This document shows, piece by piece, positions 1 to 40,741 of a stretch of DNA of 64,000 bases. This stretch comes from Bacillota bacterium (lineage in GTDB: Bacteria; Bacillota_I; Bacilli_A; RF39; UBA660): NCBI GenBank assembly GCA_023460995.1, contig JAEWOE010000001.1, forward strand, positions 10,664 through 74,663, read 5' to 3'. Both the position numbers and the translations under genes were made by a program. The notes beneath the pieces were generated by a model, which was given only the letters and a program-made list of their open reading frames with translations, ran no database searches and had not been told where the DNA came from. Position 1 is the stretch's first letter. Every line of letters begins with the position of its first letter.

Positions 1-1
1 A

Positions 2-1180
2 AAGGAATTTTATTACTCATTTAAATATAGTTTAACTAGTGATAGTTTGAAATCTGTTGAAAGTGGAATGGTTATATATCGAACATTAGAAGCTAGTGTA
101 TCTAGTGACTCTAAGCTAGCTGGTGATAATAATGAAAGTTATTTTTCGATAATAGGTACTAATACAAGCGATATAAAGGAAGTAAATAACGGGACTTTTA
201 GTATTATAGATGGTGATTTATATACGGATAAAGATATTGATAATGGTAACAATGTTATTTTAATTTCTAAAGAACTTGCTCAGGAAAATGGATTAAAAGT
301 TGGAGATAGTATTAATTTACGCCGAAAGGTTGAAACATATACTGAAACAGAAACAAAATCTTTAGGTACAGTTACAAAGGAATATAAGATTGTTGGTATT
401 TTTGAGGCTAAATTAAATAAAATTACTGATAATGATGGAAAAGTAATAGATGAGTCTAATCCACTTGCTAACAGTATCTATATGCCTAATAATACAGTTA
501 AAATAGTACATGATGAAGTTGTTGGTTTGCTTAAGAAGTACAATGCTAATGAATATGATGATTTCAATATAAGTGCCTCATTTTATTTAAATAGTATTGG
601 TGATATAGAAAATTTTAATAATGATAATTTAAAGTTATTACCTACTGGATATAAATTTACTGATAATAGTAATCTTTATAGTAGTACTTTAGCACCTATT
701 TCTAGTATGGGAGGTATATCAAATTTTATTATGTATGCTGCTTTAATAGCGTCAATTATAATAATAGGTCTAATCTCTTTATTATTTTTTAGAGAAAGAA
801 GACATGAGATGGGTATTTACTTAGCTCTTGGTGAGCATAAGATTAATATTGCTATGCAAATACTAATTGAAACTTTAATTATATCTTTACTTGCAGTATT
901 TATTTCGATATTTACTGGTAATATGGTTGCTAAAAATATTTCTAATAATATGTTAGAAGACCAAATAGAAAATAAAGCAAGTAATGATGACTATTATTAT
1001 GATGAGTTTGGATATCAATTAAATTATAGTAAAGATGAGCTATTAGATAAATATAATGTCAAATTAGATGTTACTACTATTATTTTAATTTTTCTAATTA
1101 GTATAGGAAGTATTACTGTTTCAACTTTAATACCTATTTACTATACTTTAAAGATTAATCCTAAGAAAATACTTATGTAA
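2..1180 (+). CDS. ABC transporter permease, FtsX/MacB family (5' end cut by window edge)
   Basis: Reading frame is open back to base 2 with no stop. C-terminal FtsX-like TM bundle (FRERRHEMGIYLALGE...). Clear paralogue of the full-length permease at 20988..22523 (shared VISEELAEENDLKVGD / EIVGIYE blocks). Confidence 0.75.
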   Translation, partial: KEFYYSFKYSLTSDSLKSVESGMVIYRTLEASVSSDSKLAGDNNESYFSIIGTNTSDIKEVNNGTFSIIDGDLYTDKDIDNGNNVILISKELAQENGLKVGDSINLRRKVETYTETETKSLGTVTKEYKIVGIFEAKLNKITDNDGKVIDESNPLANSIYMPNNTVKIVHDEVVGLLKKYNANEYDDFNISASFYLNSIGDIENFNNDNLKLLPTGYKFTDNSNLYSSTLAPISSMGGISNFIMYAALIASIIIIGLISLLFFRERRHEMGIYLALGEHKINIAMQILIETLIISLLAVFISIFTGNMVAKNISNNMLEDQIENKASNDDYYYDEFGYQLNYSKDELLDKYNVKLDVTTIILIFLISIGSITVSTLIPIYYTLKINPKKILM

Positions 1181-1191
1181 GGAGAATTAGT

Positions 1192-1869
1192 ATGGAAAAT
1201 ATATTAAGCGTTAGTAATTTAAGTTACTATTATCAAGATGGTGATACTATAAGACATATTTTGAAAGATATAAATTTAAATTTTGATAAAGGTAAATTTT
1301 ATACCATATTAGGTGAAAGTGGCAGTGGTAAAACTACATTTCTTTCTCTAATATCTGCTTTAGAAGAGCAAAAACAAGGTAAAATTAAATATGATGGAAC
1401 TGATATTAGACAAATTGGTTTAGATAACTTTAGAAGAAATAAGATTGGTATTATATTTCAAAGTTATAATTTAATTCCTTATATGACTGCTTTAGAGAAC
1501 GTTTTAACAGCGATGTATATAACAGACAATAAAATACCAGGTAATTACAAAACAGTAGCTCTAAACCTATTAAAATACGTTGGAATAGATAATGATAAAG
1601 CCACAAGAGTTGTTAATAAACTTTCTGGTGGTGAACAACAAAGAGTTGCAATAGCAAGATCACTTTCTACAGATGTAGATATCATTCTAGCGGATGAACC
1701 AACAGGTAACTTAGATGAACAAATGTCAGATGAAATAGTTAAATTATTTTCTTCGTTAGCTCATGATCATAATAAATGTATTATTATGGTTACCCATTCT
1801 AAAGAAATAGCAGAAAAGTCTGATATGGTTTTAAGACTATATAAAGGTGTATTAAAAGAAAATGAGTAG
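1192..1869 (+). CDS. ABC transporter ATP-binding protein (MacB-type ATPase)
   Basis: Walker A GESGSGKTT, ABC signature LSGGEQQRVAIARSL, Walker B ILADEPTGNLD. 8-nt overlap with the next gene. Paralogue of 20320..20982. Confidence 0.85.
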   Translation: MENILSVSNLSYYYQDGDTIRHILKDINLNFDKGKFYTILGESGSGKTTFLSLISALEEQKQGKIKYDGTDIRQIGLDNFRRNKIGIIFQSYNLIPYMTALENVLTAMYITDNKIPGNYKTVALNLLKYVGIDNDKATRVVNKLSGGEQQRVAIARSLSTDVDIILADEPTGNLDEQMSDEIVKLFSSLAHDHNKCIIMVTHSKEIAEKSDMVLRLYKGVLKENE

Positions 1870-3094
1870 TTTTTTAGACAACTTCACAGAAGAAGAAAAA
1901 CAAGATAGTAATGGGATAAAAACAACTGAATATGAAGTAGATATAGATAAAAAGTATAAAAGTAAAAAGACTAAAAGATTAGTCATTGAAGTACTAGTTA
2001 TAGTATTTATTAGTATTTGTATAATATTTACTATAATTTATATGTCTAAAGTAGAGGTACCAAACTTTAATAATCAGTTAGTATCCATTGCAGATAAATG
2101 GGGTTCTAACAACGATATAGATATAGTAAAAAGCGAAGAATATAGTGATGAATTTTTAGAAGGATATATTATAAGTCAAAGTGTAGAAAATGGTACCAGA
2201 ATATCTAAAAAAAATAATTTAAAACTTGTTGTTAGTAAAGGACCAGATCCTGAGGAAGTAATTAAAGTACCTGACTTCAGTACTATGACAGGAGCTGAAA
2301 TTAAAAATTGGGTTAATGAAAATAAATTAAGTAATACTACTATTACAGAAAAAAACTCTACTCTAATAGAAGCCGGCAAATTAATTAGTTATACATTTGA
2401 AAGTGTTATTGTAGACAAAGAAAATTTTAGAAGAAGCGATGTTTTAAATATCATCATTTCTAAAGGTAACACCACATATGAAAAAGATATAGAAGTAATA
2501 AATTTAGTATCTAAAACAAAAGAAGAAGTTTCTAAGTGGTGTACAGATAATAATTTAATATGTAATTATGCAGAAGTGCTTTCGGAAACTTATGAAAGTG
2601 GTAAAATTGTGTCTCAGTCAGTAAAAGCCATGGAAACTATTTCAAAAGATCAAATACTTAATTTTGAAGTATCTGTAGGAAAAGGGATAATAGTACCTAA
2701 TTATTCAAATGTCACTAGTGAAAACGCAAGCAGTATAAATACAAAGTTTGATATTAAATTAAAATATGTATATAATATGGTTACTAGTTATGGAAAACTG
2801 ATATCGCAAAGTGTTAAAGCAGGTAGTAAAAGATTAGAAACAGATAATAAAATAGAACTAGTTTATTCACTAGGAAGACCATATTTTAGCAATCTAGTAG
2901 GAACAAGCGTTAGTGAAGTAGCAAAAATATTTTATGATTATAATCAAAAAGGAGTTAACTTTACTTATGAAATACTTTATGTTAACAGTGATAAAGAAAA
3001 AGGAAGTATAATTGAAACTTCTAAATCAAATGAATTTGTTACAACAAGCGAAAACATTATAATTAAAGTTAGTAACGGAGTAGTAGGTGATTAA
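1862..3094 (+). CDS. single-pass membrane protein with about 5 tandem PASTA-like domains, no kinase or PBP domain
   Basis: Short charged N-terminus, one TM (LVIEVLVIVFISICIIFTIIY), then a repeated block G(K/Y)(L/I)ISQSV..G..ISK...L.L.VSKG recurring about 5 times (PASTA hallmark 'G.VISQSP.AG..V..GS.V.L.VSKG'). Start overlaps the ATPase stop; ends 2 nt before the sigma gene. Confidence 0.55.
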   Translation: MSSFLDNFTEEEKQDSNGIKTTEYEVDIDKKYKSKKTKRLVIEVLVIVFISICIIFTIIYMSKVEVPNFNNQLVSIADKWGSNNDIDIVKSEEYSDEFLEGYIISQSVENGTRISKKNNLKLVVSKGPDPEEVIKVPDFSTMTGAEIKNWVNENKLSNTTITEKNSTLIEAGKLISYTFESVIVDKENFRRSDVLNIIISKGNTTYEKDIEVINLVSKTKEEVSKWCTDNNLICNYAEVLSETYESGKIVSQSVKAMETISKDQILNFEVSVGKGIIVPNYSNVTSENASSINTKFDIKLKYVYNMVTSYGKLISQSVKAGSKRLETDNKIELVYSLGRPYFSNLVGTSVSEVAKIFYDYNQKGVNFTYEILYVNSDKEKGSIIETSKSNEFVTTSENIIIKVSNGVVGD

Positions 3095-3096
3095 TA

Positions 3097-3882
3097 ATGA
3101 GAATAAAACTAAATACAATTTTTGAGTTGCTTAGAAACTATGATACTTATGGTTTTGAACTACTTTACGAAAATTATTTTAGATTAATGTATGGTGTTGC
3201 TTTTTCTATTAGTAAGAACGATGAAACGAGTAAAGACGCAATTCAAAATACCATGTTTAATTTATACAAACTTGACTGTAATAAGTTTCCTACCAATAAT
3301 GAATTAAGCTGGCTTTACAAAGTAGTAAAAAATGAAACATTACAGCTTCTTAGAAAAGAAAAGGCAAAAATATCTATTGATGATATTGCGGAATTACCTG
3401 ATCTTAACAACGATATTAATTTAGTTGTAGATATGGATTCTTATGAACAGTTAGTTATGCAACTAAATGATCGGCAAAGAAAAATAGTAACTTTAAAAAT
3501 TGTCAGTGGTTTAACTCATAAAGAAATATCAGAAATGTTAGATATTCCTCTAGGTACAGTAATGTGGAGTTATAATACATCAATAAGGAAACTTAGACTT
3601 GTTCTTAGTGGATTAACTTCTGTGTTCTTATTAAGCTTAGGAACCGTCTTATATAGGTTATTTGATGCAAAAACAAAGGTAAGTCCATTAATAAGTGAAT
3701 CATATACTACTCTAGAATATTATCCATCTAGTAAAGTAGGTGGAAGTACAGAAATCGTAAGTAATTTTAATATAGATATAGTTTTATATATAATTATGAT
3801 TGGTATGCTAATTTCATTTATATTATTATTTATCAAATCTGATAAAATTCCTAACAGAACTCTTTACAAAAGAAATAGATAA
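3097..3882 (+). CDS. RNA polymerase sigma-70 family (ECF-like) factor with C-terminal membrane anchor (2 predicted TM helices)
   Basis: Region 2-like block (YENYFRLMYGVAFSISKNDETSKDAIQNTMFNLYK) and canonical region 4 HTH (LNDRQRKIVTLKIVSGLTHKEISEMLDIPLGTVMWSYNTSIRKLR), followed by hydrophobic helices LTSVFLLSLGTVLYRLF and IVLYIIMIGMLISFILLFI. RBS GTAGGTGA 6 nt upstream of the ATG. Confidence 0.6.
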   Translation: MRIKLNTIFELLRNYDTYGFELLYENYFRLMYGVAFSISKNDETSKDAIQNTMFNLYKLDCNKFPTNNELSWLYKVVKNETLQLLRKEKAKISIDDIAELPDLNNDINLVVDMDSYEQLVMQLNDRQRKIVTLKIVSGLTHKEISEMLDIPLGTVMWSYNTSIRKLRLVLSGLTSVFLLSLGTVLYRLFDAKTKVSPLISESYTTLEYYPSSKVGGSTEIVSNFNIDIVLYIIMIGMLISFILLFIKSDKIPNRTLYKRNR

Positions 3883-3978
3883 GCATTATTATTAAAATAC
3901 ATAATATGAACGGTAGTAGGTTAGGGGACTTTACTTAAATTAAAACATATTGTTATTTTTGATTTAAGTAGATATTTT

Positions 3979-3999
3979 AAGACTTTATAAGTCTTTTTT
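3979..3999 (+). terminator. weak rho-independent terminator after the sigma-factor operon
   Basis: Inverted repeat aagact-ttata-agtctt followed by TTTT. Confidence 0.35.
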
Positions 4000-4076
4000 G
4001 TTATCATGATACAAAAAGTATTTACAAAAAAAATTTATAAATATATAATTAATATTATTAATGGGGGAAAAATATA

Positions 4077-4630
4077 ATGAGTTTTAACACAGAAATAGCT
4101 GAAGAAATATCAAAAATGCAAGAAGATGCATTATTTATTATTGATAATGAGATAGTAGAAATTTATTATAAGTTTATTTCTTATATTCCTGAAAAATGGA
4201 ATATATCTAAGATACTTCAAAAAAGTTCAGTAGATTTATCGGTACAAGAAATAGATATTTTAAAACAAATAAAAATTGATAATAATAATAGTGAAGTGTT
4301 TTTAGAATATTTAAAAAATATTTTGATAAAAATTCAATAGAAGATTTAGCTAAACTAAAATTAACGGATGAGGAATATAATCTTTGTATTAACAATATAA
4401 AAAAATATTGTATTTTTCCAACTGAAGAGTTAAATGTTATAGTAAACGATTTAAGTAAAAAAAATTGCAATGATAGATCTATATTAGAAGAATTTATATT
4501 ACATGAGCTAAGATCAATATTATTTGCTAGAAATATAAAAAAATTATCTAATGATATTGATACTAAAACAGAAAAAAACTTTCAGATGCGTTATAAAAGT
4601 TCTATATATGTTCAAAAAAACAGTATTTAA
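4077..4630 (+). pseudogene. hypothetical gene split by a frameshift at an A6 tract (4313-4318); possible pseudogene or phase-off state
   Basis: ORF 4077..4340 stops at TAG; the +2 frame is open from 4295 to about 4630 (…YFDKNSIEDLAKLKLTDEEYNL…VQKNSI). One extra A in AAAAAA at 4313-4318 would fuse both into an approximately 185-aa protein (EYLKKYFDKNS…). Confidence 0.35.
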
Positions 4631-4725
4631 TTACTGAATATAATATATATTATGTTAACTTCTTGAAATAAAAACATTTTGTATATTTAATTAATTATTG
4701 CCAATACTATTATTGGGTGATTAAA

Positions 4726-4941
4726 ATGAGAAAGAATAATAATTCAAAACAGTCTACAACAACAAGTAAGTCTAGCAATAATAGTCAAGTAACTAATAAG
4801 AAATCTAACAACGTTACAAATAAAAATTCAAATAATGTTACAAATAAAAAAAGCGATGTTGGATTCGTTACTGACAATGCTAATTCTTTCAGGTATGATC
4901 CTGAAGAAGAACATTCCTTCGACGTAACTGATTGTAGATAA
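4726..4941 (+). CDS. small low-complexity Asn/Lys/Ser/Thr-rich protein with 3 x 24-nt tandem repeats
   Basis: ATG at 4726 with RBS GGGTGA 5 nt upstream. Imperfect 24-nt repeats 4786..4857 encode (S/N)NNVTNK(K/N)S. Imperfect hairpin plus T-run downstream. Confidence 0.3.
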   Translation: MRKNNNSKQSTTTSKSSNNSQVTNKKSNNVTNKNSNNVTNKKSDVGFVTDNANSFRYDPEEEHSFDVTDCR

Positions 4942-5372
4942 CCCAGAAAGAGACGGCTATTAGCCCCTCTTTTCTTTTTTTCATTTTTAATGACAAAACG
5001 AGATTGAGAACTATGCAACTTTATATATGTCGGTGCACCAGGATGCGCCTTCTTTTTATTATATATATATCGTCTATATATGTAGTATATAACAGTAATT
5101 ATATTATTTTAGTTAATAAGCTTATATTTAGAAAAACTAACGACTTCATGATGTATTATCATTTTAAATATATAAAAAGAAAAAAGGGGACTTCCCCTTT
5201 TTATTTTAATTTATTATATTTTTCATAAAAAATTATTTTTTTACTGATTTAGTTATTCTAATAATTATAAAAAAAAACATATATCATTTCATAATTACTT
5301 TTATAATCAAATATATGTTTATGATAGATATAAAATATTGTAAGGTTGAAATTGTAGTATCTCTCCCCTAGC

Positions 5373-20319: not shown

Positions 20320-20982
20320 CTAGTTAGTATCTTTTAATTTGCCTTTTTCAAGTAAGAATAGCTGGTCGACATGTTTTTTTACATTAGGTGAATGTGATAC
20401 GACAATAACGCATTTCTTTTCATTATGAGCAAGATCTTTTAAGATATTTATTATCTCATCTTCATTATCTTTATCTAGATTACCTGTTGGCTCATCGGCA
20501 AGAATAATTTTCGAATCATATGAAAGTGCTCTAGCAATAGAAACTCTTTGTTGTTCACCACCAGATAATTGTAATACTCTTCGTTTTGCTTTATCTGTAT
20601 CTATACCAACTTTTTCAAGTAGTCTAAGGGCTTTATCTTCTTTGTTATCTTCTTTAATACCACTTATATTCATTGATAGAATTACATTTTCTAAGGCTGT
20701 ATATTGTGGTAATAAGTTATAACTTTGAAATATAATTCCAACTGCACTAGAGCGATATCTTTCACGGCTAATAAAATCAACATCTTGTCCTTCATATAAT
20801 ATAGTACCATTCTTTGTTTTTTCTAAACCAGCAAGTAAGGAAAGAAGAGTTGATTTTCCTGCCCCACTTTTTCCATATATACCATACATAATACCGTTTT
20901 CAAAGTTCATGTTTATATCTTTTAAAACGAATCTTTCTCCATCATATGTAAAATTCAAATCTTTTATTTCTAGTATTGCCAT
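20320..20982 (-). CDS. ABC transporter ATP-binding protein (MacB-type)
   Basis: GKSGAGKSTLLSLLAGLE Walker A, LSGGEQQRVSIARAL, ILADEPTGNLD. Paralogue of 1192..1869. Confidence 0.85.
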   Translation of the reverse strand: MAILEIKDLNFTYDGERFVLKDINMNFENGIMYGIYGKSGAGKSTLLSLLAGLEKTKNGTILYEGQDVDFISRERYRSSAVGIIFQSYNLLPQYTALENVILSMNISGIKEDNKEDKALRLLEKVGIDTDKAKRRVLQLSGGEQQRVSIARALSYDSKIILADEPTGNLDKDNEDEIINILKDLAHNEKKCVIVVSHSPNVKKHVDQLFLLEKGKLKDTN

Positions 20983-20987
20983 TTCTT

Positions 20988-22523
20988 CTACCCCCTATTT
21001 TGCAGTATCTTATTTGGTTCATATTTATTTACAAACATAACAGCTGTTATACCACTTATTATTGTAAGAAGTAAACTTACTCCAAATAACTGTGCTATTG
21101 TGATTAAATCTGTGTGAACTTCAAGTGATGATACATAATCATCAGCGCTTATAGTTGTAGGAGCGCTAGCCTCTGGTCTTGAAGAATTTTCGCTTGAATT
21201 TGAAGAATTAGGTCCACCATTAAATCCAGGTCTTGAGAATCCTTCTCCCCCAAAGTTTTCATTTATATTACTTTGACTTGTAGTATAACTTTCTATTTCA
21301 CTTGAAAGCATATAATTACTTACTGGTTGTGATAAAACAGTTCCTGCTGTTGTACCAACTACTAGAGCAATTAAAGCCACCATAAATATTTCAGAAACAA
21401 GCTGCAAAGTTACTTTGCTTTTAGTCATACCAATTGCTCTTAAAACACCAATCTCATACTTTCTTTCTCTAATATTAAATAGGTTAATGATTGTAAGAAC
21501 AATACCTCCTACTACTAATATAACAATTAAGAATGTAAATGAAAAACTAGCAATGCTTTTAATTGGTTCTAAAGTGGCAGTTATTTCATCTTCATTAGTT
21601 CTAATATTATAGTAATCACTAACACCTAAATCTCTAACAGCATCAGTAAATTTATCTAAATCTTCATAAGCTATATAAAAATTAGATGTAATACTATTAG
21701 ACATTGAATATGAAGTTGTTTCAGTACCATCATCTTTTACTATTTGATTTAATACAGATATATTAGTATAAATTTGATTACTACTACTTCCTTGCATTCT
21801 GCCTGGCATAGAACTAGTAGTATCATTAACTATTTCATATATTCCTACTATTTCATAGTTATAAGTAATTGCTTCATCATTAGTATTTATAAAATTTACT
21901 GTATCTCCAACTTTTAAATCATTTTCTTCAGCAAGTTCTTCGCTAATAACGATTACATTTTCAGTATTACTTTTGTCTATCATTGAACCATCAATAATTT
22001 TCTTATTTCCATCAACAAAATCTTCGTCATAAGATATATCAGAATAAGCAATTATAGTATAGTCTCCTGATGAAAAAGACATTCTTCCTCCACCGTCATT
22101 AGGTACTTGTCTATTAGTAGAATTAGTACTATTTGTACTTGAATCCTCACTCTCACTTGGTTTAGTAAATAAATCATCATAACTAATAGGCTCAATATCA
22201 TCACTGTTTAGACTACTTTGAACTGTGTAATAATAACCAGTTACCATATCTAGATTTCCTATTTCATTAATAGTATCAACAGTAAGTAACTCAAAAGTTT
22301 CTTTTTCTTCATCTGTTGCATTTCTATATGACATAGTATCTAGATTTAGGGATGCTTCTAGTGGATTAGTTTCTCTGTAAGTGTCTACTAAAGCATTACC
22401 AGACTTATTAATAGTAATAGTTATACATGCACCAAGAGTAATAGCCATAATAATTAATCCTATTAATACATTTCTTCCTTTTGCTCTAGTAATATTTAAA
22501 TAAGAATTTTTAAATATATACAT
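20988..22523 (-). CDS. ABC transporter permease, FtsX/MacB family with large extracytoplasmic domain
   Basis: N-terminal TM, about 300-aa Ser/Thr-rich external domain, C-terminal FtsX helices (FNIRERKYEIGVLRAIGMTKSK). Confidence 0.8.
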   Translation of the reverse strand: MYIFKNSYLNITRAKGRNVLIGLIIMAITLGACITITINKSGNALVDTYRETNPLEASLNLDTMSYRNATDEEKETFELLTVDTINEIGNLDMVTGYYYTVQSSLNSDDIEPISYDDLFTKPSESEDSSTNSTNSTNRQVPNDGGGRMSFSSGDYTIIAYSDISYDEDFVDGNKKIIDGSMIDKSNTENVIVISEELAEENDLKVGDTVNFINTNDEAITYNYEIVGIYEIVNDTTSSMPGRMQGSSSNQIYTNISVLNQIVKDDGTETTSYSMSNSITSNFYIAYEDLDKFTDAVRDLGVSDYYNIRTNEDEITATLEPIKSIASFSFTFLIVILVVGGIVLTIINLFNIRERKYEIGVLRAIGMTKSKVTLQLVSEIFMVALIALVVGTTAGTVLSQPVSNYMLSSEIESYTTSQSNINENFGGEGFSRPGFNGGPNSSNSSENSSRPEASAPTTISADDYVSSLEVHTDLITIAQLFGVSLLLTIISGITAVMFVNKYEPNKILQNRG

Positions 22524-22612
22524 ATTGTATCTCCTTTCATATTAATAATATAAATATTGTGTGAAAATAAAATGGAGGATAAATGTTATTTTAGTGAAGA
22601 AAAAAAGGATGA

Positions 22613-22861
22613 CTAAATCATCCTTTTTAATAAGTATATCCATATACATAAAAATATAGGCTCTAATAGTGCAAATTTAAGTTTTTTTGTCTTATGTCTA
22701 AATATATACATCCCTATAATAAAACCTAAACAACCACCTATAAATGATAAAAATAGCAGGATATTCTCTGGTACTCTATATTTGTGTTTAATAGCCATAA
22801 GTTTATCATAACCACATATAATAAAAGCTATAAAATTAATAGTTATTATATAATATATCAT
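22613..22861 (-). CDS. DUF1294-like small membrane protein
   Basis: FIICGYDKLMAIKHKYRVPENILLFLSFIGGCLGFIIGMYIFRHKTKKLKF matches the DUF1294 signature as I recall it. Confidence 0.45.
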   Translation of the reverse strand: MIYYIITINFIAFIICGYDKLMAIKHKYRVPENILLFLSFIGGCLGFIIGMYIFRHKTKKLKFALLEPIFLCIWIYLLKRMI

Positions 22862-24327
22862 TTGTTACTTTTATTAACTTCAAACCAGAAAGTAGTACCT
22901 TTATTAATTATAGAATCTACACCATATTTTAATTTATGGTTAATTAGTATATTTTCTACTATAGATAGACCTATACCAGTACCAATTTTATCTCGCTTAT
23001 GAGTTTTATCAACCTTGTAATACTTCTTCCAAATAAGTTTAATTTCTTCTTTTTTAATTCCTTTACCAGTATCTATTATTTCAATTCTAGCACTACTATT
23101 ATCATCATCAATAATGTTTATAGTAACTTTTTTATCACTACCAGTATAATTTACCGCATTATTAAGTAAATTATATACAACTTGCTCAATACGAAGTTGA
23201 TCAGCACTTATTAATAATTCTTTATTATAATTAAATATAAAAGTATACTGACTATTTTGTTCAAGAATGCGATATCTTCTAAGAACATTCTTGATTAAAT
23301 CTGTGATATCGAAAGTAGTAATATTTAAACTCTTTGTTTTAGACTGAAGTACAGACAAATCTAAAATATCATTAACAAGAACATTTAAACGATCAGTTTC
23401 TTCAATAATTACGTTTAAGTTTTCTTCTCGCTTTTTTTTGTCCTTATATGTTAAATCACGAACCATTTCCGCATAAGCTTTTATCATTGTAAGAGGTGTT
23501 TTTAAATCATGACTAACATTAGCCATAAGTTCTCTTCTAAGTTCTTCTGTTTTACTAAGTTCTTTTGTCGTTATGTTTAAAGTATTAACTAAGTTATTTA
23601 ATTCATCTATATCTTCATCTATATAAAATCTTGTGTCATAATCGCCTTTACTCATTTTAGTCGCACTTCTATTAATTTTTTCTATAGGTTTACTTATTCT
23701 TTTAGAAATAAAGAAAGCTACTATAAATGAAAGAAGTAAAACTACAAAAGTAACTATAACAAGTTGATGCTGAAGTATCCCTATTGCTGAATCAAGTGGT
23801 TCTAAAGAAGTACTCACAAAGGCATATGTATTAGTATTTAGTTTAATTGCTCTTATTAATACTTCATTATCATACCTTGGATTAATAAGTTTATATGTTT
23901 CTTCATCAAGTAAACTATTTATAAATGCTTGCTTATAATCTTTTACAGTTTGATCAGGAAGACAACCTCTATTAAAAGAAGTTGAATCATATACAATCGC
24001 ATTATTAGTAATTATTTGGATGCATATACCATTATCTCTCGCTACTGCATCAATAGTATTATACAAAGTGTTATTTTCATAGGTTGATTTTATTGTAGTA
24101 ATTGTACTTCCTATCTCTTTTACTTTAGCTCTTTCATAAAAACTATTTAGGAATAATATTTGGAATATCCAAAGAAAAAGTAAAATCAAAATAGAAAAGA
24201 TTATTAAATATGACCATATTTTAAATTTTAAACTATTTGTTTTTACTTTTTTTATTCTATTAAAGATATCTATAATACTATCTTTAATATTATTTATTTT
24301 TAACTTCAAATTTGTATCCCATACCAC
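22858..24327 (-). CDS. two-component sensor histidine kinase (TM-HAMP-HisKA-HATPase)
   Basis: H-box HDLKTPLTMIKAYAEMV, N/G boxes (IIDTGKGI, GTGIGLSIV), two TM helices flanking an extracellular loop. Track start is a GTG overlapping the response-regulator gene by 38 nt; the true start is uncertain. Confidence 0.8.
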   Translation of the reverse strand: MVWDTNLKLKINNIKDSIIDIFNRIKKVKTNSLKFKIWSYLIIFSILILLFLWIFQILFLNSFYERAKVKEIGSTITTIKSTYENNTLYNTIDAVARDNGICIQIITNNAIVYDSTSFNRGCLPDQTVKDYKQAFINSLLDEETYKLINPRYDNEVLIRAIKLNTNTYAFVSTSLEPLDSAIGILQHQLVIVTFVVLLLSFIVAFFISKRISKPIEKINRSATKMSKGDYDTRFYIDEDIDELNNLVNTLNITTKELSKTEELRRELMANVSHDLKTPLTMIKAYAEMVRDLTYKDKKKREENLNVIIEETDRLNVLVNDILDLSVLQSKTKSLNITTFDITDLIKNVLRRYRILEQNSQYTFIFNYNKELLISADQLRIEQVVYNLLNNAVNYTGSDKKVTINIIDDDNSSARIEIIDTGKGIKKEEIKLIWKKYYKVDKTHKRDKIGTGIGLSIVENILINHKLKYGVDSIINKGTTFWFEVNKSNK

Positions 24328-24952
24328 GAACAGTAGTTATTAAGTCTCTATATTTTCCTAAATTATTTCTTAATTTTTTAATATGTGTGTCAACAGTACG
24401 ATCATCACCAAAGAAACTATACCCCCATAATTTACTTAAAATGGTTTCACGCGATACCGCAATATTTTTATTTTGAACTAAATAGCATAATATTTCGTAT
24501 TCTTTCGGTGTTAATTTTAATTCTTCATCATCAACACTAACAGTATGTCCAGCATAATTAATAACAAGTGTTTCAAATTTAAACTCATCTGATACGGCAT
24601 TTCTTTTACTTACCGCTTTTATTCTAGCCATTAATTCTTTTGGACTAAATGGTTTAGTCATATAATCATCTATTCCAAGTTCAAATCCAACTAACTTATC
24701 ATATTCTTCTTTTCTAGCTGATAAAATGATTACTGGAATACTTTTAATCTTTTTAATTTCTTTACAAGCTGAAAATCCATCTAAATTAGGCATCATAACA
24801 TCTAATACCACTAAATCTATATTATTATTTCTAACCATTTCTATAGCTTCTAAGCCATCACTAGCCTCAAAAATATGATATCCTTCGCTTGCTGAATATT
24901 CTTTTATAACATTTCTTATTAATGTTTCATCATCAACTATTAATATGTTCAT
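24290..24952 (-). CDS. OmpR-family response regulator
   Basis: MNILIVDDETLIRNVIKEY…DVMMPNLDG receiver, C-terminal winged-helix (TVRGMGYKF). Confidence 0.85.
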   Translation of the reverse strand: MNILIVDDETLIRNVIKEYSASEGYHIFEASDGLEAIEMVRNNNIDLVVLDVMMPNLDGFSACKEIKKIKSIPVIILSARKEEYDKLVGFELGIDDYMTKPFSPKELMARIKAVSKRNAVSDEFKFETLVINYAGHTVSVDDEELKLTPKEYEILCYLVQNKNIAVSRETILSKLWGYSFFGDDRTVDTHIKKLRNNLGKYRDLITTVRGMGYKFEVKNK

Positions 24953-25016: not shown

Positions 25017-27074
25017 TTATTTATTATAATATGAAGTAATCGTTTCACTAACACTTTTCATAAAATCTTCTTTATATTTATCAATAAAATCTAAATCAGT
25101 TTGACTAGTTATATATCCTAATTCTAAAATATAACTTTCTAGACCTCGATTAGAATTTACATATGGATTAGCATCTTCATCATCTCTACCATCAACATAT
25201 GCTCCTGCCATATATCCACCAGTTTCTCTTATAATAAAATAATAATTTGTACTTAAACTTACATCAAATGGTTCAAAGTCTTTCTCATCAGCTTCTTTAG
25301 CAAGATTGTTTAAATCTGTTCCATTAAATGTTCTAGTATAAATACCTGATTCAACTTTCTTAAATGGATTATATGAATAAGTAAACTCACTTACTTTATC
25401 AAGTCCTGAAACTAAACTTCTTGCAAATTCATAATCTATATTATTAGAAGTATATAATTCAAAACCATTTTGAACTACATCACTAGCGTTTAAATGAATA
25501 GAGATTAACATTTTAGCATTACTTTCATAAGCTTTTGTTACTCGTCCGTCTTTACCATATTTATCTATCCACTCATCTTTTGCCCTTGTTAAGGCTACTT
25601 TAAAACCAGCATCTTCTAAATCTTCTTTTAATAAATTAGATAGTGCTAATGTATAATCAGTTTCACACTTTTTATTATAACAAGCGCCTGCATCTGAACC
25701 ACCATGACCTGGGTCGATAATAACATCATAAACTTCATCAGTCGATTTACTAATATTAACGGCCATACTATGATATTTTGATTCATCTTTAATAATAAAC
25801 TTTTTACTTACATTATCATCAGATATACCATAATATGTTGTATCATCATAATCGGTAGTGTTATCTAAAGCATAATATAAACTTTCTTTATCAGCAACAA
25901 CCTTAATAAGTAAAATATAATTATCTATTATCATATTGTCTAATAAAAAGCCTGTATTTAAAGAGTCAGTTATATAAAAATTTACCTTGTTGTTATCAAC
26001 AGTGTATTTCAAATCATATTCTACATTATTGTCTCTACCTATCATAACAAGATTAACATCACTAACGTTATCAGCATCTACATCTAAATTGCCTTTTAAA
26101 TTCATATGGTTTCCATAAATATATAATTCATTAATTGTTGCTTTGTTATCTTCTGTTGGAATTAACACTTCATTATGTTTAGGAAAAACCCTTAATAACA
26201 GATATCCTCCTAATGCAAGTATTGCTATTAGTAAGACAATTTTAATAATACTTAGTAGTGCTTTGAAAAAAGCAAATTTTTTAGTATCTCTTTTTTTTAT
26301 ATCATGAAATTTAAACATGTCTGGGTCTTTATCTTTTTTCTTTTCTTTAATTATTGTTTTGTTATAAGAATTATTATATAGATTAGCAATATCATTTCTT
26401 ATTTCTTCTTTTTTAGGTTCTTCTATTTTAGAAGATAAATCCTTTTCAAGTTTTAACAATTCTCTTTTTTCTTTTGCAAATTTCGAATATTTACAACCAC
26501 AGTAATCTTGACGATATAAGTCATATTCCTTTGCAAGTTCAACACTTCTTTTATAACCATTTTTCTTCTTGAAATCAGCATATAGATATTTAGTGCCAAA
26601 TTCTTTTTCTAATTCTTCACCAATTTCATTTAATTTATTACTATTTTTATAAGGGCTAACCGATAAAGTAGTTGTAAAATAATCAAAATCGTGTTCTTTT
26701 GCATATTTAGCAGCAGCTTCCATACGAAGTCTATAACAAATAAAACATCTATTACTTCCTTCAGCATCATTTTCGTGTCCTTTTATTATACTTTCAAATT
26801 CTGTATTATCATAATGTTCTATAACACAATTAACTGGATTTTTTGTTTTAAAAGTGCTAAGAAACTTTTTCATTTCATTAGCTCTTCTATCAAATTCTTC
26901 ATATGGTTCTATGTTAGGATTGTAGTAATATATTGTAATTTCAAAGTAATTAGCTAGGTATTCTATACAGTAACTAGAACATGGTGCGCAGCAAGCATGT
27001 AGTAGTAACTTAGGAGTATCTTCTTTCTCAGATACTTTTTCTAGCATTTCATCTAGTCTTTTTTGATAATTCAT
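25017..27074 (-). CDS. fusion protein: epoxyqueuosine reductase QueH domain (N-terminal) - TM segment - N-acetylmuramoyl-L-alanine amidase (Amidase_3) domain (C-terminal)
   Basis: N-terminal LLLHACCAPCSSYCIEYL…SVSPYKNSNKLNEIG…YRQDYCGCKYS (DUF208/QueH Cys motifs). Linker with TM FAFFKALLSIIKIVLLIAILALGGYLLL. C-terminal DVIIDPGHGGSDAGA…LSIHLNAS typical of the MurNAc-LAA amidase_3 family. Single uninterrupted 685-aa ORF. Confidence 0.55.
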   Translation of the reverse strand: MNYQKRLDEMLEKVSEKEDTPKLLLHACCAPCSSYCIEYLANYFEITIYYYNPNIEPYEEFDRRANEMKKFLSTFKTKNPVNCVIEHYDNTEFESIIKGHENDAEGSNRCFICYRLRMEAAAKYAKEHDFDYFTTTLSVSPYKNSNKLNEIGEELEKEFGTKYLYADFKKKNGYKRSVELAKEYDLYRQDYCGCKYSKFAKEKRELLKLEKDLSSKIEEPKKEEIRNDIANLYNNSYNKTIIKEKKKDKDPDMFKFHDIKKRDTKKFAFFKALLSIIKIVLLIAILALGGYLLLRVFPKHNEVLIPTEDNKATINELYIYGNHMNLKGNLDVDADNVSDVNLVMIGRDNNVEYDLKYTVDNNKVNFYITDSLNTGFLLDNMIIDNYILLIKVVADKESLYYALDNTTDYDDTTYYGISDDNVSKKFIIKDESKYHSMAVNISKSTDEVYDVIIDPGHGGSDAGACYNKKCETDYTLALSNLLKEDLEDAGFKVALTRAKDEWIDKYGKDGRVTKAYESNAKMLISIHLNASDVVQNGFELYTSNNIDYEFARSLVSGLDKVSEFTYSYNPFKKVESGIYTRTFNGTDLNNLAKEADEKDFEPFDVSLSTNYYFIIRETGGYMAGAYVDGRDDEDANPYVNSNRGLESYILELGYITSQTDLDFIDKYKEDFMKSVSETITSYYNK

Positions 27075-38770: not shown

Positions 38771-40267
38771 TCATTTTTTGATCCCTATTAATTCATTTTT
38801 TAAATTATTACAACTTAAAAACTGATGGCCAAATTGTATTAAGTTCGGCAAATATATCACACTTATTGAATTGTTGTAACTTAAGAAATTATCACCCACT
38901 TGTATTAGTGATGGTAAGTATAACGATGTTAGTGATTTATTCCCAGATAAGAATTCGTTTCCTGCTTCTTTTAGAGAAGGCAAGTTTATTTCTGTTAATT
39001 GATTATTTGAAGATAAGAAACCACTTCCTACTTGCTTTAACAATGGTAATTCTAATGTTATTAATGATTCGTTTTGAGTAAAGAAATAGTCTCCTACTTC
39101 CACTAGTGATGGCAAGTTTACTGATGTTAGTGATTCGTTTTGAAACAAAAAATAATTTCCTGCTTCCTTTAACATAGGCAGGTTTAAATCTGTCATTAAA
39201 ACGTTATTATATAAGAAAAAATCATCTGTTCGATTTAATTTATCATTCTTGTACCCTATAATATTATTATTTTTATCAATGATAACTTCTATAACATTAA
39301 TTTCTTCGCCCTTCTTCGTTTCAATATATATTACTTTATTGTTATTCTCTTTTTTTATAACGTTTATTTTAGAAATGTTTTTAAAATCATCTATAAAGCA
39401 GTCTTTTAAAGTTGAATCGTAAAGTAGTATTTTTTTATTGGTAATATCTAATATAAAATAATCAATAATAAGATATTTTGAACTATCAAGATAATCTTTC
39501 TTAACTACAAAGTTATCTATAATTATATTACCAGGGCAATAATAAATATTGTTTATTTCATAATTATATTTATGAAACTTTCCGTCATTAGCCCTAACAT
39601 ACCCTTTAATTTCAAAGAAATGTCGGTTAGGAATAAAATTAAACTTATAGTGTCTTCTGAAACTACTAGATAAACCTGACTTTATATTATCTAAATTGTT
39701 ATTAAAAGTACTGTCACAATTATCTACTCTGTGGTTATACCTATTTTTAATTGACAGCGTATTAACATTGCCACGCGTAAATTGAATACTTATTACAGAA
39801 GTACCATATTCATCTTGTCTTTGTGGCTTACTAAAGCTTTCTCTGTTTAATTCAAAAGCATTCTTTTTTACTGCAAAAAAAACATGGCATCGATCTAATC
39901 TATTTCCTTTAAATGTACATAATTCTTCTTCTGGTTTATAGTACTTTTTAAAGGTTTGTATTTCCTCTTCATTATGACACTCATAAAGAATATATCCAGC
40001 TTCTTCTAATAATTCCTGTGGCGTTTTTTCTTCAATACTTTCTATTGGGTCTTCTTCAGTTGCAATAGTATAAATATATTCCTTAAACTCAGGTATTAAT
40101 CCAAATTTACATATATCATAATATAAATCTCTTGATTGATAAAAATTTGTACTCAAAGCCCAGTATAATAACTGTGGTTCTTCAAGCAATGTCGGAAATA
40201 ATTGTTGGCATAAATGCATCATTTTTTCTCCGTAAAATTTTTTTATCATCTTTAAGTCATCAAACAT
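38771..40267 (-). CDS. leucine-rich-repeat protein (N-terminal unknown domain + about 6 C-terminal 22-aa LRRs, BspA/LRR_5-like); no signal peptide
   Basis: Repeats LPxLxxxGxxFLxxNxSLTxLx (e.g. LPSLVEVGDYFFTQNESLITLE). Full-length copy carrying a T8 tract in the codons for CHVFFAVKK. Confidence 0.6.
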   Translation of the reverse strand: MFDDLKMIKKFYGEKMMHLCQQLFPTLLEEPQLLYWALSTNFYQSRDLYYDICKFGLIPEFKEYIYTIATEEDPIESIEEKTPQELLEEAGYILYECHNEEEIQTFKKYYKPEEELCTFKGNRLDRCHVFFAVKKNAFELNRESFSKPQRQDEYGTSVISIQFTRGNVNTLSIKNRYNHRVDNCDSTFNNNLDNIKSGLSSSFRRHYKFNFIPNRHFFEIKGYVRANDGKFHKYNYEINNIYYCPGNIIIDNFVVKKDYLDSSKYLIIDYFILDITNKKILLYDSTLKDCFIDDFKNISKINVIKKENNNKVIYIETKKGEEINVIEVIIDKNNNIIGYKNDKLNRTDDFFLYNNVLMTDLNLPMLKEAGNYFLFQNESLTSVNLPSLVEVGDYFFTQNESLITLELPLLKQVGSGFLSSNNQLTEINLPSLKEAGNEFLSGNKSLTSLYLPSLIQVGDNFLSYNNSISVIYLPNLIQFGHQFLSCNNLKNELIGIKK

Positions 40268-40468: not shown

Positions 40469-40741
40469 TTATCCATAGTACCTTTGAAAATATATTTCCT
40501 TATCGTCCGAAATAATCTTTATAATATCATCTTCATCTACGTTTATATTATTAGGGTTTAATGGACCAAAACTATAAAAATTCTTTTCATCAAGAATCTT
40601 TTGAGAAATATATATATAATCTTTTTCTTTTAGTATTATATTTAAAGAATAAAATTCCATATTTAGGTTGTATTTTTTATTGTCTTCTGTTCTTACTAAG
40701 TAATCATAATTATTAATTTCTAATATTTGCACTTTTTTCAT
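40469..40741 (-). CDS. hypothetical small protein (90 aa)
   Basis: ATGA start/stop overlap with the upstream LRR gene. No counterpart downstream of LRR copy 1. Confidence 0.3.
   Translation of the reverse strand: MKKVQILEINNYDYLVRTEDNKKYNLNMEFYSLNIILKEKDYIYISQKILDEKNFYSFGPLNPNNINVDEDDIIKIISDDKEIYFQRYYG

What the first reader, a model, noticed from the sequence alone, without database searches (positions are those of the whole stretch)
3097..3882. Sigma factor with fused C-terminal transmembrane anchor (self-contained sigma/anti-sigma?)
Region 2 and a textbook region-4 HTH are followed directly by two strongly hydrophobic helices (LTSVFLLSLGTVLYRLF; IVLYIIMIGMLISFILLFI). There is no separate anti-sigma gene downstream, only a terminator. 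A sigma factor tethered to the membrane by its own C-terminus would need proteolysis or conformational release to act.
Basis: seen in the sequence. Interest (0 to 1): 0.65.

Follow-up and report, generated by a model that had tools for sequence, protein, structure and literature searches.

The report
Membrane-anchored ECF sigma factor family
This gene encodes a small alternative sigma factor that is welded to a two-helix membrane anchor instead of having a separate anti-sigma partner; it belongs to a sizeable, apparently unstudied family in Clostridia and Bacilli, so it is real and moderately interesting rather than an artefact.

Summary
ORF 3097-3882 (261 aa) is an ECF sigma factor. Its sigma-4 helix runs without a linker into TM1 (~168-190). 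An acidic ~36-aa outside loop, TM2 (~227-247) and a short basic tail follow.

The layout is conserved. It is seen in 56 of 58 close homologues and about 213 clusters at 50% identity, including complete genomes. It is therefore not a frameshift artefact.

The nearest soluble ECF relatives carry a classical overlapping single-pass anti-sigma-like gene. This family does not.

A family-specific ECF promoter, CCAA(C/T)AAAA-N15-GCATCTAA, precedes the sigma genes, which points to autoregulation. In Clostridia a second copy lies inside the last codons of the sigma gene and drives a downstream secreted or lipoprotein gene. That explains the "conserved" SDKxPTK tail as a DNA-level constraint.

In the window's clade that second promoter has decayed. 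The sigma gene is instead the last gene of an operon: MacB-type ABC permease, ATPase, kinase-less PASTA membrane protein, sigma. The operon promoter lies about 330 nt left of the window.

Inferred, not shown: the hairpin sequesters sigma at the membrane until intramembrane proteolysis releases it. No anti-sigma domain is present, so "fused sigma/anti-sigma" is only partly right. I rate it a new variant of a known kind.

The parts
1..1180 (+). MacB/FtsX-type ABC permease, 5'-truncated by the window edge (residues 89-484 of a 480-484-aa protein). First gene of the operon.
   Evidence: Pfam MacB_PCD + FtsX. 89% identical to residues 89-484 of the L001 permease, with the frame open to the window edge. 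Full gene in the window's own genome, L085 2642-4084.
1192..1869 (+). ABC ATPase of the MacB/LolD/DevA type.
   Evidence: Pfam ABC_tran 6e-34. Best NCBIfam hits are lactococcin-972-type exporter, DevA and LolD, all below their cut-offs.
1862..3094 (+). Kinase-less PASTA-repeat membrane protein: ~40-aa cytoplasmic N-terminus with the conserved motif MSSFLDNFTEEE, one TM, and five PASTA repeats outside. Candidate sensor partner.
   Evidence: Pfam PASTA, 5 stretches, 6.8e-28. Matches only the TM + PASTA part of Stk1/PknB. The N-terminal motif is near-invariant in 6 orthologues. Found immediately upstream of the sigma gene in every clade member examined.
3085..3090 (+). Ribosome-binding site AGGTGA for the sigma gene. 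The PASTA stop codon (3092-3094) is 2 nt from the sigma ATG.
   Evidence: Read directly from the sequence.
3097..3882 (+). ECF sigma factor with fused C-terminal TM hairpin (261 aa).
3163..3363 (+). Sigma region 2 (residues 23-89).
   Evidence: Pfam PF04542, 29.7 bits against cut-off 24. AF2 pLDDT 84-90.
3439..3597 (+). Sigma region 4 helix-turn-helix (residues 115-167). The recognition helix carries GTVMW.
   Evidence: Pfam PF08281/PF04545. The alignment to B. subtilis SigW (5wuq) ends at residue 166. GTVMW co-varies with -35 CCAATAAA.
3598..3666 (+). TM1 (residues ~168-190), N-in/C-out, moderately hydrophobic and rich in Ser/Gly/Thr. Continuous with the last sigma-4 helix.
   Evidence: KD 1.90. 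AF2 predicts a single helix over 152-194. Conserved position in 56 of 58 homologues.
3667..3774 (+). Extracytoplasmic loop (residues ~191-226), variable and acidic across the family.
   Evidence: Pairwise identity 0.20, length 21-43 aa, family net charge -3.1. pLDDT below 50.
3775..3837 (+). TM2 (residues ~227-247), strongly hydrophobic.
   Evidence: KD 3.04. AF2 helix 226-249.
3838..3882 (+). Basic cytoplasmic tail SDKIPNRTLYKRNR plus stop. The DNA at 3850-3882 (CCTAACAGA...) is a decayed relic of the in-ORF promoter P2 found in the Clostridia relatives.
   Evidence: 5 K+R against 1 D+E. In relatives CCA-ACA-AAA = PTK and ATC-TAA = Ile-stop form the -35 and -10 of P2. The window clade lacks a match.
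3979..4000 (+). Weak hairpin AAGACTT-TAT-AAGTCTT plus T-run. Possible intrinsic terminator of the operon.
   Evidence: Centroid -4.7 kcal/mol, z = -0.88. Not called by the terminator scan.
4077..4620 (+). Downstream soluble gene of unknown function, split by a frameshift relative to its 197-aa orthologue. Not part of the system.
   Evidence: tblastn finds residues 1-79 in one frame and 91-194 in another. Not conserved in L002 or L010.

Best explanation
SHOWN.
- The gene encodes a genuine group-4 (ECF) sigma factor. Its sigma-4 recognition helix continues without a linker into a C-terminal transmembrane hairpin: sigma domains inside, an acidic loop of about 36 aa outside, and a short basic tail inside.
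- It belongs to a conserved family in Clostridia and Bacilli of about 213 clusters at 50% identity. The family has lost the overlapping single-pass anti-sigma-like gene that its nearest soluble relatives carry.
- A family-specific ECF-type promoter, CCAA(C/T)AAAA-N15-GCATCTAA, precedes the family's sigma genes.
- In the window's own genome this promoter lies about 40 nt upstream of the permease start codon, roughly 330 nt left of the window. The sigma gene is therefore the last gene of an operon that its promoter marks as self-activated: MacB-type ABC permease, ATPase, kinase-less PASTA membrane protein, sigma.

INFERRED.
- The hairpin does the job of the missing anti-sigma factor by sequestration. 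While TM1 is in the bilayer, sigma-4 is held flush against the membrane and cannot engage the RNA polymerase flap and the -35 DNA.
- An envelope signal then leads to a cut in the exposed loop, followed by intramembrane (site-2-protease-type) cleavage of TM1. TM1 has the N-in orientation and the Ser/Gly/Thr-rich composition such proteases need.
- In this clade the signal is probably relayed through the adjacent PASTA protein (peptidoglycan or lipid II sensing) and/or the ABC transporter.
- The soluble sigma is released and turns up its own operon, giving positive feedback.
For: - Sigma identity.
- Conserved hairpin and topology.
- Family size and length distribution.
- Independent assemblies, including the complete genome of Acetobacterium carbinolicum.
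- Soluble relatives have a +1 gene encoding a single-pass protein with a ~50-aa cytoplasmic N-terminus. The fused family does not.
- Promoter: 48 of 49 exact matches to CAACAA-N18-TCTAA on the gene strand of 47 loci fall at two fixed positions, about -50 to -130 from the sigma start and at the sigma stop.
- Window clade promoter: it is the top PWM hit and the only invariant intergenic block upstream of the permease gene in L001, L002, L010, L083 and the window's own contig L085.
- Co-variation: sigma-4 GT(I/V)QW pairs with CCAACAAA, and GTVMW with CCAATAAA.
- No linker: the alignment to SigW ends at residue 166 and AF2 draws one helix over 152-194.
- TM1 is less hydrophobic than TM2 and carries S171, G172, T174, S175, S180, G182 and T183.
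- Context: a paralogous ABC module in the same window is wired to a two-component system. This suggests that PASTA + sigma fill the signalling slot for this transporter.
- Precedent from the literature: fused IutY is released by Prc/RseP (PMC8999054). From my own knowledge, pro-sigma-K is cleaved directly by the site-2 protease SpoIVFB.
Against: - No protease, cleavage site or processed form was observed. No M50 protease gene was recognised in the 64-kb window, though that was only a motif scan.
- TM1, the loop and TM2 are poorly conserved (0.29, 0.20 and 0.29 pairwise identity). There is no recognisable cleavage or ligand-binding motif.
- A two-pass substrate is unusual for site-2 proteases.
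- Cleavage in TM1 would leave a hydrophobic stub on sigma-4. In anti-sigma factors such a stub acts as a degradation tag.
- The partner proposed for this clade, the PASTA protein, is absent from most of the family. The trigger therefore cannot be universal.
- The steric argument against activity at the membrane is reasoning, not a computed result.
Confidence: 0.5

Rival explanations
1. The sigma factor works while still anchored. Holoenzyme forms at the membrane and transcribes envelope genes there (ABC transporter, PASTA protein, lipoproteins). These loci are themselves drawn to the membrane by co-translational insertion. Regulation would act on sigma abundance or on hairpin conformation, not on release.
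For: - All predicted targets encode membrane or secreted proteins. Of 43 +1 genes, 38 carry signal peptides, and the window operon is entirely membrane-associated.
- The hairpin sequence is poorly conserved, as expected of a pure anchor.
- No protease or cleavage motif was found.
- From my own knowledge, membrane-bound DNA-binding regulators such as ToxR and CadC exist.
Against: - There is no flexible linker between the sigma-4 recognition helix and TM1. ToxR and CadC have long linkers.
- Unrestrained positive autoregulation from P1 would lock the system on without some inhibitory device.
- The family replaced an anti-sigma-like gene, which is an inhibitor.
Confidence: 0.17
2. In the window's clade the upstream PASTA protein is the real anti-sigma factor or sensor. 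Its short conserved cytoplasmic N-terminus (MSSFLDNFTEEE) binds and silences the sigma domains. The hairpin merely keeps sigma next to it. Ligand binding by the PASTA repeats, or proteolysis of the PASTA protein, frees sigma activity.
For: - The topology is that of a classical anti-sigma factor: N-in, one TM, an extracytoplasmic sensor domain.
- It is translationally coupled to the sigma gene.
- It is conserved at position -1 in every clade member examined.
- The N-terminal 12 residues are near-invariant while the rest of the tail varies.
- The soluble relatives' anti-sigma-like proteins also have only ~45-50 cytoplasmic residues.
Against: - Profile-profile comparison with those anti-sigma-like N-termini gives a probability of 1.7%.
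- No anti-sigma Pfam domain is found.
- The PASTA protein is absent from the ~40 other family loci, which keep the hairpin.
- Binding could not be modelled, because no multimer prediction was available.
Confidence: 0.25
3. The hairpin is an instability or quality-control determinant. Membrane insertion exposes sigma to FtsH-type degradation. Envelope stress that saturates the protease lets sigma accumulate, without any specific release step.
For: - The hairpin has low sequence conservation but a conserved topology.
- The basic tail is short.
- There is no conserved partner across the family.
Against: - Accumulated sigma would still be membrane-bound, so this needs rival 1 to be true as well.
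- No direct evidence was obtained.
Confidence: 0.06
4. Artefact: a frameshift or assembly error joined a sigma gene to a small membrane-protein gene, or the hydrophobic stretches are buried helices rather than TM segments.
For: None found. L049 has a separate 79-aa two-TM ORF after a family sigma gene, but that sigma already carries its own extension.
Against: - The same architecture occurs in 56 of 58 homologous clusters and about 213 clusters at 50% identity, from NCBI, JGI, ENA and Logan assemblies, including complete genomes.
- The identical protein is found on 4 contigs.
- KD of 3.04 over 19 residues and the positive-inside charge pattern fit TM segments.
Confidence: 0.02

Closest known systems
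ECF sigma factors fused to a membrane-spanning anti-sigma moiety: IutY of Pseudomonas putida (ECF243) and the actinobacterial groups ECF48/52/53 such as SCO4117
   Same: They are single-polypeptide ECF sigma factors with C-terminal TM helix or helices. Activation by regulated intramembrane proteolysis is proposed, and for IutY shown (Prc + RseP) (PMC8999054).
   Different: Those proteins have a recognisable anti-sigma domain (FecR-like or zinc-finger ZAS) between sigma-4 and the membrane, and a large extracytoplasmic sensor domain. Here sigma-4 abuts TM1 directly, there is no anti-sigma domain, and only a ~36-aa loop lies outside. The phyla also differ.
ECF263 (C-terminal extension of five or seven TM helices; Casas-Pastor et al. 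2021, PMC7826278)
   Same: It has a TM-only C-terminal extension on an ECF core, no anti-sigma gene, and has not been characterised experimentally.
   Different: This family has two helices rather than five or seven. I could not test whether it is an ECF Hub group, because the group HMMs and the supplementary text are not available here.
Classical Firmicutes ECF/anti-sigma pairs released by proteolysis (sigma-W/RsiW, sigma-V/RsiV)
   Same: B. subtilis SigW is the closest solved structure by sequence and fold. They share an autoregulated ECF promoter with an AAC-type -35 and an envelope-related regulon. The nearest soluble relatives of this family have exactly this two-gene layout.
   Different: The inhibitor is not a separate protein. 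The membrane segment is part of sigma itself.
Pro-sigma-K / SpoIVFB of Bacillus subtilis (own knowledge)
   Same: A sigma factor is kept inactive by a membrane-associating extension and is activated when a site-2-type intramembrane metalloprotease cuts the sigma itself.
   Different: Pro-sigma-K is a group-3 sporulation sigma with a short N-terminal pro-sequence, not a true TM hairpin at the C-terminus.
ABC-transporter-coupled signalling modules of Firmicutes (BceAB-BceRS type; own knowledge)
   Same: An FtsX-family ABC transporter is co-encoded with a regulator that has two TM helices and almost no extracellular domain, and that induces the transporter's own operon. A paralogous ABC module in this window is wired to a histidine kinase and response regulator.
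   Different: The regulator is a sigma factor, not a histidine kinase. The permease is the 4-TM MacB type, not the 10-TM BceB type. The link to an ABC transporter holds only for the window's clade.

Membership tests
ECF (group 4) sigma-70 family | Sigma region 2 and region 4 present | tested here: met
   PF04542 scores 29.7 bits (cut-off 24). PF08281 scores 42 bits (cut-off 25.7). TIGR02937 scores 62.4 bits (cut-off 42.9). Foldseek top hits are ECF sigma factors.
ECF (group 4) sigma-70 family | No region 3 or region 1; short sigma-2/sigma-4 linker | tested here: met
   No Sigma70_r3 or r1 hit at E <= 0.1. The linker is 25 aa (residues 90-114).
ECF (group 4) sigma-70 family | Autoregulated promoter with an AAC-containing -35 and a conserved -10, upstream of its own operon | tested here: met
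   CCAACAAAA-N15-GCATCTAA lies upstream of 20 family sigma genes. The variant CCAATAAAA-N15-GCATC(C/T)AAA lies upstream of the operon in the window's own genome (L085) and in 4 relatives. Function as a promoter is inferred from position, conservation and co-variation. It has not been measured.
Fused sigma/anti-sigma ECFs (ECF52/53/48, IutY type) | Anti-sigma domain (ZAS zinc finger or FecR-like) between sigma-4 and the first TM helix | tested here: not met
   No such Pfam hit. Sigma-4 ends at ~167 and TM1 starts at ~168. There is no His/Cys motif in the extension.
Fused sigma/anti-sigma ECFs (ECF52/53/48, IutY type) | Large extracytoplasmic sensor domain | tested here: not met
   The loop is 36 aa here (21-43 in alignment A1) and disordered in the AF2 model. 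Longer loops in other members match no Pfam domain.
ECF263 | C-terminal extension with five or seven TM helices | tested here: not met
   Two hydrophobic segments in 56 of 58 homologues and in 91 of the 101 representatives that the script could index.
Any named ECF Hub group | Match to the group HMM of the ECF classification 2.0 | not testable with these tools
   The group HMMs and Supplementary Text S2 / Table S2 of PMC7826278 are not held. All NCBIfam equivalog models score far below their cut-offs.
Substrates of regulated intramembrane proteolysis (site-2 protease) | N-in (type II) TM helix with helix-destabilising residues | tested here: met
   The charge distribution gives N-in for TM1. 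TM1 contains S, G, T, S, S, G, T. This is compatible with being a substrate but does not prove it.
Substrates of regulated intramembrane proteolysis (site-2 protease) | Cognate site-1 and site-2 proteases present, and a processed product observed | not testable with these tools
   Only 64 kb of the genome is available. A motif scan found no M50-like protein in the window. Showing a processed product requires experiments.
Class I/II anti-sigma factor (tested for the PASTA protein) | Homology of the cytoplasmic N-terminus to known or neighbouring anti-sigma domains | tested here: not met
   hhalign probability 1.7% against the +1 anti-sigma-like proteins of the nearest soluble ECFs. No anti-sigma Pfam hit. 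Only the topology and the position match.

The most novel reading that the evidence does not exclude
A sigma factor that never leaves the membrane. The hairpin-anchored ECF recruits core RNA polymerase to the cytoplasmic face of the membrane and initiates there at promoters of envelope-protein genes. This would couple transcription spatially to membrane insertion. In the window's clade its activity would be gated within the membrane by the PASTA protein and the ABC transporter.
Probability: 0.15. Interest if true: 0.85.

Novelty: new variant of a known kind. Interest (0 to 1): 0.5.

Why it matters
ECF sigma factors are the third major mode of bacterial signal transduction. Nearly all mechanistic knowledge of them rests on separate anti-sigma proteins or on soluble C-terminal extensions.

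This family strips the system down to one polypeptide: sigma plus two membrane helices, with no anti-sigma domain. If sequestration and release are confirmed, it would be the simplest known way to couple an envelope signal to transcription. It would also be a direct ECF counterpart of pro-sigma-K processing.

The family comes with a well-defined cognate promoter and a one-gene or one-operon regulon. That makes it easy to test, and potentially useful as a compact orthogonal switch.

The analysis also gives a clean example of a promoter embedded in the last codons of the regulator's own gene. The embedded promoter imitates a conserved protein motif (PTK...I-stop, or QQK...SK in another reading frame). 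This is a caution for motif-based annotation.

The PASTA-ABC-sigma operon in the window's clade suggests a kinase-independent route from peptidoglycan sensing to gene expression.

Tried and rejected
- **Frameshift or assembly artefact.** Rejected on conservation.
- **The conserved tail SDKxPTK as a protein-level docking, phosphorylation or degradation motif.** Rejected as the main explanation. The same DNA element occurs in non-coding position upstream of the sigma genes. It also occurs in three different registers relative to the sigma reading frame, or wholly after the stop codon.
- **PASTA N-terminus as a homologue of the neighbouring clades' anti-sigma-like proteins.** hhalign probability 1.7%.
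- **A further sigma-dependent promoter inside the window.** PWM and regex scans gave only weak, unplaced hits.
- **Site-2 protease in the window.** Only a HExxH/LDG motif scan was run, and nothing convincing was found.
- **Domains in the long-loop relatives.** None.
- **AlphaFold DB fold search.** The library was not available. The PDB search only confirmed the ECF fold. The model's compact sigma-2/sigma-4 arrangement resembles anti-sigma-bound structures, which is expected for an isolated ECF and is not informative.
- **Literature.** Five full-text searches and five papers read gave no description of this Firmicutes two-TM family or of a PASTA-type anti-sigma factor. The supplementary text of the ECF classification is not held, so prior cataloguing cannot be excluded.
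- **Terminator.** The downstream hairpin is not significant.
Full report
**1. The observation**

ORF 3097-3882 on the + strand encodes 261 aa. It starts at ATG and has an AGGTGA ribosome-binding site at 3085-3090. Its start lies 2 nt after the stop codon of the upstream gene.

Pfam finds Sigma70_r2 at residues 23-89 and Sigma70_r4/r4_2 at 115-167, and no region 3. NCBIfam's general ECF model TIGR02937 is passed, at 62 bits against a cut-off of 42.9. Every specific equivalog model falls far below its cut-off.

The closest solved relative is B. subtilis SigW. Its alignment ends at query residue 166. Foldseek against the PDB returns only ECF sigma factors.

The best 19-residue Kyte-Doolittle means are 1.90 for residues 168-186 and 3.04 for residues 228-246. 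AlphaFold2, run with a 35-sequence alignment (mean pLDDT 71), gives the following:
- one uninterrupted helix from 152 to 194, so the sigma-4 recognition helix runs straight into TM1;
- a disordered stretch at 194-224;
- a second helix at 226-249.

**2. Not an artefact: a family**

A search of 5.8 billion proteins returned 58 clusters that cover the whole query, at 37-92% identity and mostly 240-273 aa long. After a sharp drop from E = 1e-42 to 1e-19, the remaining hits are ordinary 150-210-aa ECFs that match only the sigma core.

- Of the 58 clusters, 56 have two hydrophobic segments at fixed positions after the GT(I/V)xW motif. None of the 17 short hits printed has any.
- A profile search of 1.84 billion 50%-identity representatives found 213 clusters at E <= 1e-30. 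Most are 240-435 aa long and match through TM1 or to the end.
- Members occur in complete genomes and MAGs of Acetobacterium, Anaerovoracaceae, Lacrimispora, Clostridium, Hathewaya, Oscillospiraceae, Christensenellaceae, Erysipelotrichaceae and unclassified Bacilli.
- The window's exact protein is on four independent contigs.
- Mean pairwise identity by region is 0.61 (sigma-2), 0.65 (sigma-4), 0.29 (TM1), 0.20 (loop), 0.29 (TM2) and 0.42 (tail).
- Mean net charge is +2.8 before TM1, -3.1 in the loop and +3.5 in the tail. This is the positive-inside signature of an N-in/C-in hairpin.

**3. What the family has lost and what it keeps**

In 24 loci of the nearest soluble ECF relatives (about 30-35% identity), the gene that follows nearly always has the classical anti-sigma layout. 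It usually overlaps the sigma stop codon. It encodes a single-pass protein with a 45-60-aa cytoplasmic N-terminus.

In the hairpin family no such gene exists. Clustering of eight neighbours per locus in 47 loci found no conserved partner other than the +1 gene. That gene is on the same strand in 41 of 43 loci and carries an N-terminal signal sequence in 38 of them, 23 with a lipobox. These +1 proteins are diverse: DUF3221-like lipoproteins, CarboxypepD_reg-like lipoproteins, a trypsin-like protease and small secreted peptides.

**4. The cognate promoter, and why the tail looks conserved**

The regions upstream of the sigma genes share the motif CCAACAAAA-N15-(G)CATCTAA. Of 49 exact matches to CAACAA-N18-TCTAA on the gene strand of 47 loci, 20 lie 51-132 nt upstream of the sigma start (P1). 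Another 28 lie at the very end of the sigma gene (P2). Only one lies elsewhere.

In 20 loci the TAA of the -10 element is the sigma stop codon itself. There CCA-ACA-AAA encodes Pro-Thr-Lys and ATC-TAA encodes Ile-stop. That is exactly the "conserved" C-terminal peptide SDKxPTK...I seen in alignment A1.

In other subfamilies the same DNA element sits in another reading frame, giving ...QQK...xSK-stop, or lies wholly after the stop codon. The tail motif is therefore chiefly a DNA-level constraint: a sigma-dependent promoter for the downstream secreted-protein gene that overlaps the regulator's last codons.

The sigma-4 recognition helix reads GT(I/V)QW wherever the -35 is CCAACAAA. It reads GTVMW in the clade whose -35 is CCAATAAA. 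This is a single co-variation event, but it fits direct recognition of the promoter by this sigma.

**5. The window's clade**

The window, L001 (92% identity), L010, L002, and the loci carrying P0004, P0006 and P0009 (53-62% identity) all share one arrangement. The order is MacB_PCD/FtsX permease, ABC ATPase, PASTA protein, sigma.

The window starts at codon 89 of the permease gene. The window's own genome was recovered as L085. There the sequence TACCAATAAAATGTACTGTTAAATGCATCCAAAT ends about 40 nt upstream of the permease ATG, just after a terminator hairpin.

This element is the top PWM hit in L001, L002 and L010. It is the only invariant block in a five-way alignment of the otherwise diverged intergenic regions. 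So the sigma gene is the last gene of an operon carrying its own family's promoter.

P2 has decayed in this clade. The tail reads SDKIPNRTLYKRNR, with DNA CCTAACAGA... and no -10 match. No conserved gene follows. In the window the next gene is a soluble protein split by a frameshift, preceded by a weak hairpin with a T-run.

The PASTA protein has:
- a ~40-aa cytoplasmic N-terminus whose first 12 residues (MSSFLDNFTEEE) are nearly invariant;
- one TM helix;
- five PASTA repeats, matching only the extracellular part of Stk1/PknB kinases.

Its topology and position are those of an anti-sigma factor. Profile comparison with the anti-sigma-like proteins of the soluble relatives nevertheless shows no homology, with a probability of 1.7%.

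The transporter is of the MacB/LolCDE type. A paralogous transporter elsewhere in the window (20320-22523; ATPase 52% identical, permease 25% identical over its full length) sits beside a histidine kinase and a response regulator. PASTA + sigma therefore occupy the regulatory slot that a two-component system fills for the paralogue.

**6. Mechanism**

Shown:
- the protein is an ECF sigma factor;
- the hairpin topology is conserved;
- the anti-sigma-like gene has been lost;
- a cognate promoter lies upstream of the sigma gene or its operon;
- the operon structure.

Inferred: while TM1 is in the bilayer, sigma-4 is pinned to the membrane surface with no linker, and the sigma is inactive. A signal leads to cleavage in the exposed loop and then within TM1. 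TM1 is N-in and Ser/Gly/Thr-rich, as site-2-protease substrates are. Cleavage releases a soluble sigma that amplifies its own operon.

Precedents are IutY, a fused sigma/anti-sigma protein processed by Prc and RseP (PMC8999054), and pro-sigma-K, cut directly by SpoIVFB (my own knowledge). I give this explanation about 0.5.

The main rivals are a sigma that works while tethered (0.17) and, for this clade, the PASTA protein acting as the true inhibitor or sensor (0.25). The PASTA rival is partly compatible with the main model. No protease could be sought outside the window, and multimer modelling was not available.

**7. Comparison with what is known**

Reviews and the ECF classification 2.0 list TM-bearing C-terminal extensions in three contexts: ECF48/52/53 (ZAS domain plus 1-2 TM and a large outer domain), ECF263 (5 or 7 TM) and IutY-type fusions. 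This family fails the defining features of each. It has no anti-sigma domain, no sensor domain and only two helices.

I found no description of it, nor of a PASTA-linked ECF, in the searchable literature. The supplementary catalogue of ECF groups is not held. The family may therefore already carry a group number without having been studied.

I rate it a new variant of a known kind, with interest 0.5. It is a solid and testable family with a neat promoter-in-ORF feature, but it is conceptually adjacent to known fused ECFs.

Noticed in passing
window 4077-4620 (+): The gene downstream of the sigma gene is split by a frameshift relative to its intact 197-aa orthologue in L001. Residues 1-79 lie in one frame and 91-194 in another. 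It is either a pseudogene or a sequencing error. It encodes a soluble protein of unknown function.
   Followed up: partly
L003-L048, e.g. L003 7719-7761; L046 near the sigma stop codon: In the Clostridia relatives a sigma-dependent promoter is embedded in the last ~10 codons of the sigma gene. Its -10 TAA serves as the stop codon. The same element occurs in different reading frames in different subfamilies, giving PTK...I-stop or QQK...SK-stop, so it mimics a conserved protein motif.
   Followed up: yes
window 20320-24952 (-): A second, paralogous MacB/FtsX-type ABC transporter is present (ATPase 52% identical, permease 25% identical over its full length). It lies next to a HAMP histidine kinase and an OmpR-type response regulator. 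The same transporter type is thus wired to a two-component system here, and to PASTA + anchored sigma at 1-3882.
   Followed up: partly
window 25017-27074 (-): A single 685-aa ORF combines an epoxyqueuosine reductase QueH domain (residues 22-197) with an N-acetylmuramoyl-L-alanine amidase domain (450-564). This is an odd fusion of a tRNA-modification enzyme and a cell-wall hydrolase.
   Followed up: no
window 38771-40267 and 40738-42431 (-): Two neighbouring genes begin with nearly the same N-terminus (M[FI]DDLKMIKKFYGEKMMHLC...). The second copy is a 132-aa ORF overlapping a 438-aa ORF with BspA-type leucine-rich repeats. It looks like a frameshifted paralogue.
   Followed up: no
protein cluster of P0013; loci L004 and L006: Family members at >=90% identity occur in Acetobacterium (Eubacteriaceae) and Sinanaerobacter (Anaerovoracaceae). 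One Anaerovoracaceae MAG carries two copies on different contigs. This suggests recent horizontal transfer or duplication of the sigma + lipoprotein cassette.
   Followed up: no
L042 (uncultured Ruminococcus) around 1650-4700: Several sigma-like ORFs lie in tandem: 422, 249, 155 and 156 aa, all clustering with the family. One extra copy of the promoter motif lies 1.4 kb upstream.
   Followed up: no
window 4717-4941 (+): A small ORF (74 aa) with a repetitive Asn/Ser/Lys-rich sequence (NKKSNNVTNKNSNNVTNKKSD) lies in the gene-poor stretch 4350-5370 after the operon. It may not be a real gene.
   Followed up: no
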